The notes under the pieces are model-generated. The model was not told the origin of the DNA and did no database searches. It saw nothing but the letters and a program-made list of their open reading frames with translations. A program made the translations under genes and the position numbers. DNA of 64,000 nucleotides, from assembly GCF_054482525.1 (NCBI RefSeq), contig NZ_CM137006.1. One strand, 5' to 3'. Shown here piece after piece: positions 49,990 to 57,235 of this stretch (its first letter is position 1; every line of letters starts with the position of its first letter).

Positions 49990-52900
49990 TTAATAATGCT
50001 CCTCAATATACCCATACGCCTTCTGGAACAACTCTTTATCTTTCCCTAGTCCAAACTGGGCCAAGGTCAGCAAAAGCGCCTTTTGGATTTCGCGCGGGCC
50101 ACTGTTAGAATTTTGCCAGCCATCAAAGCGGGTAGCTTTCACAATTTTATCAATTTGCTCTACAACATCACCGATTAACTTAGGGGTAGTTTCCGGACGT
50201 GTTTCGAGGAAAAGCTTAGTCAACGCCTGTTTATTATCAGCTTCAGTTACTGGACGCTCGCCCGTTTCGCGCTCGGCTTGAACGGTATCTTTCGCTGCAT
50301 CCAACAGGCCTTTCAACCAGTCAATGGCCTTGATAACACCAGCTTCATAGTCCTGACGCAGTTTTTCAAGGCGCTCGCCCAATGCCACAAATTTAGGATC
50401 ATGACTGCCGCGCAAACGTCCCATAAGATCAATCTCCAGGCGTTTAGCACGTTGTTCCTGCTCTTTAGCGGTCAGGGTAAAAATAGCGTGCTCGTCCATG
50501 ACCAACTCGTCAATATCATCGCGAATACGATTGATATCAGTATGCTCATGGATCATCTTGATTGTTTCGGGGCCAAGGGCAGCCCAAACAAGCGCACCTG
50601 TCTGCCCTACCGGACGCACCGATTCATAAATTTGCGCCAGCCATTTATAGTCCTGACGATAAGGGGTCAAAAAAGGGTCTGGGTTGATAGCTGACCATAA
50701 CTTGGATAACACACCAAAGCTGGCAGCGAATTCATCGCGCTTCTCGTTGGTCGGCAGGCATTCCTGCGCGGCCATAATACCTTCAAAACCAGCTATGGAC
50801 CGATCCACACCAGGGAAGAAGGACAAACATTTATTCAGTTGTAACGGCAATAGCTCTTTAAATGCCTCAATTCCCTCTACAACTCCTTCAATTTCTTCAG
50901 GGTTATAGGCCAGAGCGGTACGCAGATTTTCGAAAACGCCGAGGTAGTCGATAATTAATCCCATGTCCTTGCGTACAGTATCGGTTTCGTACAGCCGGTT
51001 AGTTCGGCACATGGCCTGCAGAAGGGTATGATCGCGTAGAGGCTTATCGAGGTACATGCAGTAGCAAATCGGGGCATCAAAGCCCGTAAGCAGCTTGGCG
51101 GTTACGATAATAAGCTGTAATGGATATTCAGGATCTTTAAAGCACTCAATTAGATCCTTTTGCACCTGCTCTTCGGCATCGATGTGCTGCCAGCGTTCAA
51201 AATCGACTTGTTTGACAGGCAGCTCCAACTCATCATGCCATTTAAGCCAATCCTTGTTGAGCTTGTCTTTTTTGCCACCCTCTTCAACTTTAATCGGAGC
51301 CTGGTCAACGTTCATAACCACTTCAACTGCATCAAAACCAAGCTTTTCACCGAGCAAATAATACATCTGCACACAGGCTTCGCGATCGTATACCACAACC
51401 ATGCCTTTCATCTTTTTCGGCATAACATGGTTGGTAAAATGCTCAGCAATATCATTACTCACCGCAGCCATACGTCTGGGAGATTTCAGCATAATAGCCA
51501 GCTTGCCGGCACGTCTGGACAATGCTGCTTTTTCTTCTTCATCCAGGTTGTTTTCGGTAGCCAGTTGCTCGAACTCTTCATTGATGGCATCACGATCCAC
51601 TCGGAGTTCAGCCAGCCGAGGTTCGAACTTCACCGGGTTAGTTGCGCCATCCCGGATCGACTGCTTATAGCTATAGCGGCTCATATAGCGACCTGGATCT
51701 TCTTCGGCACCGAACAATTTGAACGTATTACGATCAATGCCAGAAATCGGAGTACCAGTCAGGCCATAGAAGTGGGCATTGGGCAACGCCCAGCGCATTT
51801 TCTCGCCTAATCCCCCTTCCTGTGTACGGTGAGCTTCGTCAACCAACACAATGATATTGTCCCGGTTGTTCAGGCCATTAGGGTTGCTATCGTCAATTTC
51901 GATATCTTTAAATTTAAAGATGGTGGTGATTAAAATGCCACGGCTGTCTTGTTCAATGTATTCACCCAACTTTTTGCAGCTTTGCACTTTAATCAGATTC
52001 TTAACGTCGGCTCCACCAAAGGTCTCGTTAATTTGGCTGTCCAGATCTCGCCGGTCCACAACGATAAGTACCGTCGGGTTTTTTAACGCATTATCGGCAC
52101 GTAGCATTTTGGCGGCGTAAAGCATCAACAAGGATTTACCCGATCCCTGGAAATGCCAAATAAGACCTTTTTTTGGATAGCCTCTGCGAACACGCTCAAC
52201 AATTTGTTTTGCAGCTTCAAATTGCGGATAACGCGGCAAGATTTTAACGCGTTTAGGTGGAGTATTTTTGCCCGTTTTGACGGTTGAAAATAATGCAAAA
52301 GATTCCAGTAACTGCAATAAGGTTTGCGGATTTAACAAACTCTCACAGCTATTGAGTACCGATGCCAGACCCGGCAAAATTTCATCACGAAGCTCAGTAT
52401 TATGCCAGGGTCCCCAGTCTTTAACTCGGGCATTAATGGCTCCATAGGCAAAGGTTTTACCTTCGCTGGCAAAGCACAGCAAGTTAGGTACAAAGAAAGA
52501 TTCAACATTTTTCCAGTAGTACTTTTTGCCACCCATGAAATCGGCAGCACCGTCTTGCCAGGTCACGCTGGGGCGTGTTGCGGTTTTAACTTCGCCTACT
52601 ACCAGTGGCATGCCGTTCACATAAAGAACAATATCAAAATAGACTTCAGTGGCCGCGATATAGTGAACCTGCTGCGCCACTACAAAGTGGTTGTTCTCTA
52701 TATTGTCAAAATCAATCAGATTGATGGTGATATGGTCGCCATTCTTACCAAAAGGCAAGGTTTTGTCGGCCATCAACCATTCCTGGAAGTTTTCATTGGC
52801 CTTTACCAAGCCGGTATGGCGGGCTTCTAAAACCACTCCTCGCAGTTTGTAAATGACCTCATCGGCATAGTCAGGCTGTCTGCCGATATCAGGGTTTAAC

Positions 52901-55739: not shown

Positions 55740-57235
55740 ACCTCGAACCCTTCTTTGATAAGCAGGGCCTCCAGCTCCTCTTCTGCTTTTTCCAGCTCAG
55801 CCAGCTTCCGTTGAAAATCTTTGAGCGCCTCTTCCACAGTGATGGTTTCTTCTTCGAGTGGCTTTTGCACATAACGAGCAATATTTAGATTGAAGTCATT
55901 TTCTTCAATCTCCTTCAGAGGAACCCAGCGTGCAACGCCTTCGATTTCTTTTGCATCTGGCCCTTGTTGCGCCTGGTCATGATAGATTTGGTATATTTCA
56001 TCGGCCTGCTTGTTGGACAGCGTATTCTGCGCACGTCCCTTGGTATAGATTTCTTCAGCATTGATGATCAATACATGATCTTTATGCGCGGCCGGACGTG
56101 ATTTACGCAGCACCAAAATACACGCAGGAATCCCAGTTCCATAGAACAGGTTGGAAGCAACACCAATAATCGCCACAATGCGATTCTCTTGCAGTAATTT
56201 GGTTCGAATTGCCCCCTCTGCGCCGCCACGAAACAGCACACCATGAGGTAATACGACTGCCATACGTCCATTGTCGTTAAGTGAAGCAAACATATGCTGC
56301 ACCCAGGCAAAATCACCATTTGTTTTAGGCGCCAGGCCATATTGCTTACGGCCATAGGGATCGTTCGACCACAGATCGTATCCCCATTCTTTTAAGCTAA
56401 ACGGTGGGTTGGCAACAACGCAGTCAAAGGTTTCTAAACGATCGCTTTTTAAAAATTTAGGTTCGCGTAAAGTATCCCCTCGGACAATATCGAAATCTTC
56501 CTGTCCATGCAGGAACAGATTCATACGCGCAATAGCTTCCGTCGTTAAGTTCTTTTCCTGACCCTTGATTTTTAGTAAACGCGGATCACCACCATTTTCT
56601 TTTACATGGTGGATGGTCTCAAGCAGCATACCACCGGTACCACAGGCGGGATCGTAGACACTCTCACCGGCTTTTGGATCAAGAATGTTAACCATCAAAC
56701 GAACGATAGTTCGTGGGGTATAGAACTCACCTGCTTTCTTATTGGCTTTGTCTGCAAAGCGTTTGATCAGATACTCGTATGCGCGCCCCATATCATCGTC
56801 ACGGACACTAGAAACGCCAAGGTTCACCTTATTGAAGTGATTGAGTAACGTAGCCAGTAACTCATCAGAAAGGCGTTCTTTATTGGTCCAGCTGGCATCG
56901 CCAAAAATGCCATGCAGTTTAGGGTTTGCCAGTTCTATACCACGGAAGGACTCTTTTAAAGCCTGACCGATGTCCTTGGTCTCAGCGAAAACATCGCGCC
57001 AGTGGCAATTTTCAGGTATCTGAATACGGTGAAACATCTTGCCCTTGGCAAGCTCTGCATCCCCAACGCTCTCCATCGCATCAGCAAATTCTTCGTCATA
57101 CACGTCACAAATGCGCTTGAAGAACAAGATGGGGAAAATGTACGTTTTGTAATCTGACGCATCAATGGGCCCTGTAATAATATGGGCTGCATGCCATAGA
57201 TGGGCCTCGAGATCTTTTAGGTTAATCAGTGTCAT
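55736..57235 (-). CDS. hsdM: second HsdM-type N6-adenine methyltransferase (paralog) heading the operon
   Basis: Track ORF 55736..57337; HsdM N-terminus MTLINLKDLEAHLWHAAHIITGPIDASDYKTYIFPILFFKRICD starts at ATG 57235; motifs GEFYTPRTIV, DPACGTGGML, NPPFS; stop overlaps the downstream hsdM start by 4 nt (ATGA). Confidence 0.88.
   Translation of the reverse strand: MTLINLKDLEAHLWHAAHIITGPIDASDYKTYIFPILFFKRICDVYDEEFADAMESVGDAELAKGKMFHRIQIPENCHWRDVFAETKDIGQALKESFRGIELANPKLHGIFGDASWTNKERLSDELLATLLNHFNKVNLGVSSVRDDDMGRAYEYLIKRFADKANKKAGEFYTPRTIVRLMVNILDPKAGESVYDPACGTGGMLLETIHHVKENGGDPRLLKIKGQEKNLTTEAIARMNLFLHGQEDFDIVRGDTLREPKFLKSDRLETFDCVVANPPFSLKEWGYDLWSNDPYGRKQYGLAPKTNGDFAWVQHMFASLNDNGRMAVVLPHGVLFRGGAEGAIRTKLLQENRIVAIIGVASNLFYGTGIPACILVLRKSRPAAHKDHVLIINAEEIYTKGRAQNTLSNKQADEIYQIYHDQAQQGPDAKEIEGVARWVPLKEIEENDFNLNIARYVQKPLEEETITVEEALKDFQRKLAELEKAEEELEALLIKEGFEV

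What the first reader, a model, noticed from the sequence alone, without database searches (positions are those of the whole stretch)
49990..57235. Type I R-M operon with two tandem, translationally coupled hsdM paralogs (hsdM2-hsdM-hsdS-hsdR)
Two full-length HsdM-like genes (499 and 501 aa) lie head to tail with a 4-nt ATGA overlap, followed by hsdS (overlapping the hsdM stop) and hsdR. Both retain motifs I and IV but differ in motif X (GEFYTPR in the upstream copy, AEFYTNR in the downstream copy) and have different C-terminal tails. Canonical Type I systems carry one hsdM, so this suggests either a heteromeric methyltransferase core, a regulatory or non-catalytic paralog, or a fusion of two systems.
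Basis: seen in the sequence. Interest (0 to 1): 0.6.

Follow-up and report, generated by a model that had tools for sequence, protein, structure and literature searches.

The report
Known two-methylase (m6A/m4C) Type I system
The two tandem hsdM genes are real, but they are the M1 and M2 subunits of an already characterised class of Type I restriction-modification enzyme (the PacII family), in which one methylase marks adenine and the other marks cytosine; this is an ordinary E. coli member of that class whose DNA target is not yet known.

Summary
On the minus strand lie four intact, tightly packed genes: M1 (57235-55736, 499 aa), M2 (55739-54234, 501 aa), S (54241-53054) and R (53052-49990). 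M1 and M2 are 46% identical.

The arrangement is not new. It matches the m4C/m6A "two-methyltransferase" Type I family of Morgan et al. 2016 (NAR, PMC5100572), whose M1M2S-DNA crystal structure was solved by Zhu et al. 2022 (PMC9613975; PDB 7VRU/7VS4).
- M1 is 85% identical to M1.PacII and carries AGEF, NPPF and GTGIP.
- M2 is 86% identical to M2.PacII and carries AAEF, NPPY, NSPME and the conserved Arg29 equivalent.
- The order M1-M2-S-R is the family's conserved order.
In 63 of 66 informative loci an NPPF gene lies upstream of the NPPY gene.

The likely mechanism is a heterotrimeric M1M2S methylase: m6A on one half-site, m4C on the other, with HsdR restricting unmodified DNA.

The residual novelty is small. 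The S allele occurs in 10 of 5426 complete E. coli genomes. Its cytosine-type TRD1 is unusually divergent, so the target sequence may be new.

The parts
55736..57235 (-). hsdM1: M1-type (adenine, m6A) methyltransferase subunit, 499 aa. Carries AGEF, NPPF and the LFYGTGIP loop.
   Evidence: ORF. It is 85.2% identical to M1.PacII without gaps (7VRU_A: 984 bits, against 475 bits to M2.PacII). Residues D25, E170, F171, R252, N276-F279, S280, R336, T367 and R401 are all kept.
54234..55739 (-). hsdM2: M2-type (cytosine, m4C) methyltransferase subunit, 501 aa (498 aa if it starts at the ATG at 55730). Carries AAEF, NPPY and the LFYNSPME loop.
   Evidence: ORF. It is 86.0% identical to M2.PacII (7VRU_B: 983 bits, against 451 bits to M1.PacII). 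The equivalents of R29, F180, N285-Y288, F373, N375-E379 and R410 are all kept. The NPPY + EFYTNR + NSxME signature is shared with the M2 clade.
55736..55739 (-). ATGA overlap of the M1 stop codon and the first possible M2 start codon. An alternative M2 start lies at 55730.
   Evidence: Sequence read. The RefSeq annotation uses the second ATG.
53054..54241 (-). hsdS: specificity subunit, 395 aa, with layout TRD1-CR1-TRD2-CR2. It overlaps the 3' end of M2 by 8 nt.
   Evidence: This allele occurs in only 10 of 5426 complete E. coli genomes.
53825..54226 (-). TRD1 of S (aa 6-139): cytosine (m4C)-type target recognition domain, a divergent class.
   Evidence: It matches PacII S TRD1 in the PDB at E = 2e-27. 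It scores 135.9 bits against an HMM of 71 other family TRD1s built without it, while TRD2 scores -1 bit. It is at most 38% identical to any sampled TRD1. Its base-contact triad is R/N/D, against PacII R75/R76/H94.
53192..53644 (-). TRD2 of S (about aa 200-350): adenine-type target recognition domain, which would pair with M1.
   Evidence: It shows no similarity to PacII TRD2. Its weak best matches are S.BsaXI TRD2 (E = 6e-16, roughly one-third identical by eye) and EcoKI S.
49990..53052 (-). hsdR: restriction/translocase subunit, 1020 aa.
   Evidence: TIGR00348 hsdR at 475 bits, above the cutoff of 284.55. It carries a D141..E155-x-K157 motif, GSGKS at 304 and DEAH at 406. It is 84-92% identical to the R genes next to M1-M2-S in four other gammaproteobacterial species genomes.
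57388..57416 (-). Candidate sigma-70 promoter (TTGGTA-17-TATTAT), about 150 nt upstream of the M1 ATG.
   Evidence: Consensus scan only, 9 of 12 positions matched. This is not evidence of function.

Best explanation

Inferred from the PacII experiments: one S subunit binds one M1 and one M2 through a four-helix bundle made of the S coiled coil and the two different M C-terminal tails. M1 binds first and then recruits M2. The N-terminal TRD1 of S presents a cytosine of one half-site to M2 (NPPY/AAEF pocket, narrowed by the NSPME loop), which makes N4-methylcytosine. The C-terminal TRD2 presents an adenine on the opposite strand of the other half-site to M1 (NPPF/AGEF), which makes N6-methyladenine. 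HsdR joins the M1M2S core and, on unmodified sites, translocates and cuts DNA.

Shown here: gene content, order and integrity; orthology to PacII M1 and M2; conservation of every listed functional residue; and membership of TRD1 in the cytosine-type TRD family.

Not shown here: the methylation chemistry, the assembly, restriction activity and the target sequence in this strain.
For: - Two intact HsdM genes, one S and one R lie in one tightly packed operon.
- Reciprocal best matches to the solved PacII subunits: M1 to 7VRU_A, 984 vs 475 bits; M2 to 7VRU_B, 983 vs 451 bits. Identities are 85.2% and 86.0%.
- The published diagnostics are all met. The NPPF gene is upstream; the NPPY gene is downstream and adjacent to S, with R after S. 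M1/M2 identity is 46%, within the published 45-55% range. The M2 loop is N-S-P-M-E and the M1 loop is G-T-x-I-P. M1 carries AGEF and M2 carries AAEF. The Arg29 equivalent is present in M2 but not in M1 (papers read; residues checked).
- The S N-terminal TRD belongs to the cytosine-type TRD1 family: E = 2e-27 to PacII TRD1 and 135.9 bits to a leave-one-out HMM.
- The same architecture recurs widely. Of the 80 loci kept, all M2 genes carry NPPY, and 63 of the 66 loci with more than 2 kb upstream have an NPPF gene upstream on the same strand; 37 of those are within 60 nt.
- The M1-M2-R backbone is present in 109 of 5426 complete E. coli genomes, always on the chromosome.
Against: - Nothing was measured for this strain: no methylome, no restriction assay, no expression data.
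- TRD1 is only 35% identical to PacII TRD1, and two of PacII's three base-contacting residues differ (R76 to N, H94 to D). The half-site, and strictly even the target base, cannot be read from the sequence.
- Zhu et al. showed that M2.PacII can also methylate adenine in vitro.
- Both M proteins score just under the curated TIGR00497 cutoff: 228 and 227 bits against 242.75.
Confidence: 0.88

Rival explanations
1. The enzyme is heteromeric M1M2S but makes only m6A. The divergent TRD1 presents an adenine, not a cytosine, to M2, so both half-sites receive m6A.
For: M2.PacII methylated adenine when the target bases were swapped in vitro. The window's TRD1 is an outlier, at most 38% identical to 71 other TRD1s and with a unique R/N/D contact triad.
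Against: TRD1 still scores 135.9 bits against the cytosine-type TRD1 profile, while the adenine-type TRD2 scores -1 bit. The M2 pocket residues proposed to favour cytosine (NSPME, F180, F373, NPPY) are all kept. All ten characterised family members make m4C.
Confidence: 0.07
2. One copy is a redundant, regulatory or non-catalytic paralog, and the working enzyme is a canonical M2S built from a single type of M subunit.
For: In the PacII family, M1 with S alone gives partial m6A methylation, so M1 can work to a degree without M2.
Against: M2 keeps motif I, NPPY, AAEF and every pocket and DNA-contact residue of the active M2.PacII, and is 86% identical to it across genera. In the characterised systems, mutating NPPY of M2 abolishes or strongly reduces m4C in most systems tested. 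M2 genes are conserved next to S in all 80 surveyed loci.
Confidence: 0.03
3. The operon is an accidental fusion of two independent Type I systems, and one hsdM is a leftover from the second system.
For: The locus lies in a variable defence island with several other systems. The S gene is exchanged between strains.
Against: There is only one S and one R. The NPPF-then-NPPY pairing, in that order, recurs in 63 of 66 informative loci from many phyla. The two M proteins are each other's closest paralog class, as in the published family.
Confidence: 0.02

Closest known systems
PacII (Pseudomonas alcaligenes NEB585), the prototype m4C/m6A two-MTase Type I system. Morgan et al. 2016, PMC5100572; structure in Zhu et al. 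2022, PMC9613975, PDB 7VRU/7VS4.
   Same: Four components in the order M1(NPPF)-M2(NPPY)-S-R. M1 is 85.2% and M2 86.0% identical to the PacII subunits, with gapless alignments. All functional residues named in the structure paper are kept, except M2 R11 (here T), M2 D19 (here E) and M1 A368 (here G). The S TRD1 is of the same cytosine-type family.
   Different: The S subunit differs. TRD1 is only 35% identical, and two of the three base contacts differ. TRD2 is unrelated. The target is therefore not expected to be CCC-N5-RTTGY. The host is E. coli, and the locus sits in a chromosomal defence island.
Sen483I (Salmonella enterica SL483; CCC-N5-RTAG) and the other nine characterised m4C/m6A systems (DbaKI, PcaI, BceNI, Mma5219I, Apa12260I, Asu14238II, Pme5I, Dac11109IV).
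   Same: Same family and gene order. Sen483I is the characterised enterobacterial example. Restriction of phage lambda has been shown for DbaKI and Apa12260I.
   Different: In 6 of the 10 characterised systems an extra ORF separates M1 and M2; here the two genes abut or overlap.
Canonical Type I R-M systems with one hsdM (EcoKI, family IA; EcoR124I, family IC).
   Same: HsdS with two TRDs and two coiled-coil regions; an HsdR translocase-nuclease; an M:S stoichiometry of 2:1; and bipartite targets.
   Different: Canonical systems use two copies of one M subunit and make m6A on both strands. Here there are two distinct M genes. Similarity to the canonical M proteins is much lower: EcoR124 M at E = 6e-57 and EcoKI M at E = 2e-25, against about 1e-295 to PacII.

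Membership tests
m4C/m6A two-methyltransferase Type I R-M systems (PacII family; Morgan et al. 2016) | Two distinct HsdM-like genes clustered with one S gene and one R gene. | tested here: met
   M1, M2, S and R are contiguous on one strand.
m4C/m6A two-methyltransferase Type I R-M systems (PacII family; Morgan et al. 2016) | The upstream M (M1) has NPPF in motif IV and AGEF in the pocket loop. | tested here: met
   ANPPFS at 275-280 and KKAGEFYTPR in M1. Criteria taken.
m4C/m6A two-methyltransferase Type I R-M systems (PacII family; Morgan et al. 2016) | The downstream M (M2) has NPPY and AAEF and lies directly upstream of S, with R downstream of S. | tested here: met
   ANPPYS at 276-281 and TAAEFYTNR in M2. 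The M2 and S genes overlap by 8 nt, and R starts 1 nt after S.
m4C/m6A two-methyltransferase Type I R-M systems (PacII family; Morgan et al. 2016) | M1 and M2 of one system are 45-55% identical, and each groups with its own subunit class. | tested here: met
   46% identity. Reciprocal best matches to PacII M1 and M2: 984 vs 475 bits and 983 vs 451 bits.
m4C/m6A two-methyltransferase Type I R-M systems (PacII family; Morgan et al. 2016) | The M2 active-site loop is N-S-P-M-E, against G-T-A-I-P in M1. The Arg29 equivalent is conserved in M2 only. | tested here: met
   M2 has N367-S-P-M-E371 and R21. M1 has G366-T-G-I-P370 and a Thr at the Arg29-equivalent position. Criteria taken.
m4C/m6A two-methyltransferase Type I R-M systems (PacII family; Morgan et al. 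2016) | The N-terminal TRD of S belongs to the conserved cytosine-recognising TRD group. | tested here: met
   E = 2e-27 to PacII TRD1 and 135.9 bits to a leave-one-out TRD1 HMM. It is nevertheless a divergent member, at most 38% identical to the others.
m4C/m6A two-methyltransferase Type I R-M systems (PacII family; Morgan et al. 2016) | A bipartite target carrying m4C on one strand and m6A on the other, with the modified bases 7 bp apart. | not testable with these tools
   This needs a SMRT or nanopore methylome. No paper on this E. coli system was found in the searchable library.
m4C/m6A two-methyltransferase Type I R-M systems (PacII family; Morgan et al. 2016) | Assembly of an M1M2S heterotrimer, and restriction of unmodified DNA by the complex with R. 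| not testable with these tools
   Inferred from PacII biochemistry and from DbaKI and Apa12260I phage assays.
Canonical Type I R-M (single hsdM; M2S1 core making m6A on both strands) | A single hsdM gene supplies both M protomers. | tested here: not met
   There are two distinct, intact M genes of different subunit classes.
HsdR family Type I deoxyribonuclease (TIGR00348) | A whole-protein score above the curated cutoff, plus the nuclease and helicase motifs. | tested here: met
   475.1 bits against a cutoff of 284.55. D..EVK, GSGKS and DEAH are all present.

The most novel reading that the evidence does not exclude
The S allele in this window (10 of 5426 complete E. coli genomes) carries a cytosine-type TRD1 that falls outside the three main TRD1 classes seen in 72 sampled systems. 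Those classes have contact triads RRD, RRH and RRT, possibly matching the three known half-sites CCC, GCC and TCY; this allele has R/N/D. It may therefore specify an m4C half-site not yet described for Type I enzymes, or, less likely, present an adenine to M2. That would extend the small known repertoire of m4C Type I specificities.
Probability: 0.4. Interest if true: 0.3.

Novelty: new member of a known kind. Interest (0 to 1): 0.15.

Why it matters
For the scan, this finding should be closed. Tandem hsdM genes with NPPF then NPPY mark a characterised enzyme class, not a new architecture.

Three practical points follow.
- RefSeq labels both genes generically as 'subunit M' or 'class I SAM-dependent DNA methyltransferase', so the m4C activity is invisible in the annotation.
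- About 2% of complete E. coli genomes (109 of 5426) probably carry Type I-derived m4C, which matters for methylome interpretation and for transforming these strains.
- The signature NPPY + EFYTNR + NSxME is a simple rule for flagging M2 subunits automatically.

The only open scientific item is the unknown, possibly new, recognition sequence of this S allele.

Tried and rejected
- Target prediction from known S subunits. I hoped the genome-contig scan would return the characterised strains (D. baarsii, P. carbinolicus, M. mahii and others), so that TRD1 contact-triad classes could be mapped to the CCC, GCC and TCY half-sites. The class-to-half-site mapping therefore remains speculation.
- TRD2 specificity. 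The best solved relative is S.BsaXI TRD2, presumed to read CTCC. The match is weak (roughly one-third identical by eye). The BsaXI paper shows that a 59%-identical TRD keeps the specificity while a distant one fails. I rejected this as a predictor.
- A tblastn of S against plasmids gave only generic HsdS hits of at most 33% identity.
- A word-indexed protein search with TRD1+CR1 returned only 2 hits. This suggests rarity, but that tool's sensitivity limit means it is not proof.
- Literature searches for this E. coli system, by RefSeq protein accessions, by 'Sen483I'/'M1M2S' and by m4C + E. coli methylome terms, found nothing specific.
- The non-catalytic paralog and two-system fusion readings were considered and rejected (see the rival explanations).
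- I did not run structure prediction, because crystal structures of 85-86% identical proteins already exist.
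Full report
**1. What is in the sequence**

The minus strand of 49990-57235 holds four intact ORFs with almost no intergenic space.
- An HsdM-like gene of 499 aa (ATG at 57235, stop at 55736).
- A second HsdM-like gene of 501 aa (55739-54234).
- An HsdS gene of 395 aa (54241-53054).
- An HsdR gene (ATG at 53052, stop at 49990).

The M1/M2 junction reads GAGGTATGAGTACTATG. RefSeq starts M2 at the next ATG (55730), 5 nt after the M1 stop, and several close homologues begin MSNKK. The genes abut with either start. 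S overlaps M2 by 8 nt, and R starts 1 nt after S.

The two M proteins are 46% identical over their full length, E = 5e-159. NCBIfam assigns both to hsdM (228 and 227 bits, just under the 242.75 cutoff). It assigns the last gene to the HsdR family (475 bits, cutoff 284.55). R keeps a D..EVK motif, GSGKS and DEAH. I found no lesion in any gene.

**2. Where it comes from**

The 7.4-kb region is 100% identical to the chromosomes of E. coli 19KM1776 and PCN033. It is present, always chromosomal, in 109 of 5426 complete E. coli genomes. In PCN033 it lies between nanCMS and fim on one side and IS elements and CP4-like prophage remnants on the other. This is a variable defence island.

**3. What it is**

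The literature search found the answer directly.

Morgan et al. 2016 (PMC5100572) described Type I systems with two MTase genes that form a heterotrimeric M1M2S methylase.
- M1 carries NPPF and makes m6A. M2 carries NPPY and makes m4C.
- The NPPF gene lies upstream of the NPPY gene, the NPPY gene lies next to S, and R follows S.
- M1 and M2 of one system are 45-55% identical.
- An active-site loop reads N-S-P-M-E in M2 and G-T-A-I-P in M1.
- Ten systems were characterised, including Sen483I from Salmonella. More than 300 were catalogued in REBASE, about 2.5% of Type I systems.

Zhu et al. 2022 (PMC9613975) solved PacII M1M2S bound to DNA (7VRU/7VS4). They added the AGEF (M1) versus AAEF (M2) signature and an M2-specific Arg29.

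**4. Tests of membership done here**

- *Orthology.* A search of PDB sequences gives M1 to 7VRU_A at 984 bits against 475 bits to 7VRU_B. M2 gives the reverse, 983 against 451 bits. The alignments are gapless, with 85.2% and 86.0% identity.
- *Functional residues.* Every functional residue named in the two papers is kept. In M1: D25, E170, F171, R252, NPPF, S280, R336, T367 and R401. In M2: K15, R29, D33, D36, K38, R130, K167, K168, H175, F180, NPPY, S289, K291, R346, F373, NSPME and R410. The exceptions are M2 R11 (here T), M2 D19 (here E) and M1 A368 (here G).
Among representatives of 50%-identity clusters, NPPY, EFYTNR and LFYNSxME co-occur, and NPPF goes with EFYTPR and LFYGTxIP.
The 80 loci kept span Proteobacteria, Bacteroidota, Chloroflexi, Actinobacteria, Firmicutes, Cyanobacteria, Patescibacteria and a Methanosarcina. 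All 80 M2 genes carry NPPY. Of the 66 loci with more than 2 kb upstream, 63 have an NPPF gene upstream on the same strand, and 37 of those lie within 60 nt or overlap. S and R follow in the same order.
- *Conclusion.* The tandem, abutting arrangement is the common form of a common family.

**5. The specificity subunit**

Residues 6-179 of S match PacII S TRD1 (E = 2e-27), while TRD2 does not match PacII. A TRD1 HMM built from 71 other family members, without this sequence, scores the window's TRD1 at 135.9 bits and its TRD2 at -1 bit. The N-terminal domain is therefore of the cytosine-recognising type, as the family rule predicts.

It is, however, an outlier.
- It is 35% identical to PacII TRD1 and at most 38% identical to any sampled TRD1. 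That is about as far as the three main TRD1 classes are from each other (medians 35-40% between classes, 50-58% within).
- At the PacII base-contact positions R75/R76/H94 it has R/N/D. This combination was seen once in 72 sequences. The common triads are RRD (30), RRH (21, which includes PacII) and RRT (10).

Within E. coli the M1-M2-R backbone is shared at 98% identity or more, but the S gene is swapped. This allele occurs in only 10 genomes. The allele of strain RM14516 has a TRD1 only 36% identical. The recognition sequence cannot be predicted. It is unlikely to be PacII's, and the m4C half-site may be new.

**6. Mechanism**

The mechanism is inferred from PacII. S binds M1 through the C-terminal tails and the coiled coil, and then recruits M2. 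TRD1 presents a cytosine to M2, giving m4C. TRD2 presents an adenine on the other strand to M1, giving m6A. The two methylations are structurally asymmetric, and hemimethylated DNA is preferred. R restricts unmodified DNA, and Ocr and ArdA inhibit the enzyme.

Nothing about activity in this strain was or could be tested here. A candidate promoter lies about 150 nt upstream of M1, but this is a consensus match only.

**7. Rivals**

- A heteromer making only m6A is possible, because M2.PacII can methylate adenine in vitro and TRD1 is divergent. The TRD1 family membership and the intact cytosine pocket argue against it (0.07).
- A non-catalytic or regulatory paralog (0.03) and a fusion of two systems (0.02) are contradicted by residue conservation and by the conserved pairing across phyla.

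**8. Verdict**

This is a new, uncharacterised member of a known and structurally solved kind. Interest is low (0.15). The one open point is the target sequence of a rare S allele.

**9. Side observations**

- In the survey, locus L046 (a Bacteroidota MAG) has an M2-type gene directly after housekeeping genes. It has no M1 anywhere in 15.5 kb, and its S has two TRDs that both score as cytosine-type (168 and 166 bits). Morgan et al. stated that no natural all-m4C or single-M2 system had been seen.
- L048 (a Chloroflexi MAG) also lacks M1.
- The window's neighbours are listed under 'noticed in passing'. They include a Mokosh MkoC gene, a PDC-S02/Mrr-like nuclease, a TIR gene killed by a nonsense mutation, and a low-GC ATPase + methylase-TRD fusion pair.

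Noticed in passing
L046:7010-14816 (MAG Bacteroidota SSF3, JAIBAE010000011.1); also L048:7007-13500: Two systems have an M2-type (NPPY/EFYTNR/NSxME) methylase but no M1 gene anywhere in about 15 kb. In L046, housekeeping genes (lpxB, an MFS transporter) directly precede M2, and the S subunit has two cytosine-type TRDs (168 and 166 bits to the TRD1 HMM). This is a candidate natural all-m4C, single-methylase Type I system, which Morgan et al. 2016 said had not been observed. In L048 only the C-terminal TRD is cytosine-type. Both are MAG contigs, so an M1 gene elsewhere in the genome is not excluded.
   Followed up: partly
window 46272-49909 (+): This low-GC pair (30%, against about 45-50% for the flanks) has an ATGA overlap. 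The first gene is a 577-aa ABC/AAA_21-type ATPase with weak AriA, mad3, PtuA and AbiLi similarity. The second is a 635-aa N6_Mtase fused to a single Methylase_S TRD. No nuclease domain was recognised. The pair is conserved next to the Type I operon in other E. coli strains. Its system type is unresolved.
   Followed up: partly
window 57479-58130 (+): This TIR-domain gene is inactivated. Relative to the intact copy in strain RM14516 it has a GAA-to-TAA nonsense change, a second downstream CAG-to-TAG change, and an in-frame expansion of an ATCCTG hexamer repeat (4.5 copies against 2.5). RefSeq annotates it as a pseudogene in PCN033.
   Followed up: yes
window 59598-63113 (-) and 58481-59473 (-): The 1171-aa helicase + PLD protein matches PADLOC MkoC (Mokosh) at 1692 bits over its full length. 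The adjacent 330-aa 'restriction endonuclease' matches PDC-S02 at 272 bits. Together with the Type I operon, the TIR gene and the ATPase-methylase pair, they form a dense defence island beside nanCMS and fim.
   Followed up: partly
window 53054-54241 compared with L002:6067-7218: Across E. coli the M1-M2-R backbone occurs in 109 genomes at 98% identity or more, but the S gene is replaced as a cassette. The window's allele occurs in only 10 genomes. Another allele has a TRD1 only 36% identical, so even the 'conserved' cytosine TRD varies within one species.
   Followed up: partly
TRD1 alignment of 72 S subunits (L003-L082, PacII, window, L002): At PacII's base-contact positions 75/76/94 the cytosine-type TRD1s fall into three main classes: RRD (30), RRH (21, including PacII, which reads CCC) and RRT (10). 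This equals the number of m4C half-sites known (CCC, GCC, TCY). The correspondence is untested.
   Followed up: partly
P0122-P0135, P0138 and P0142 (representative proteins): Many of the closest 50%-cluster representatives of M2 are 650-900 aa long, which suggests M2-S fusions. Such fusions are known from Dac11109IV, but may be much more frequent than the single published example suggests. One such fusion is directly visible in L016 (911 aa, M2+S).
   Followed up: no
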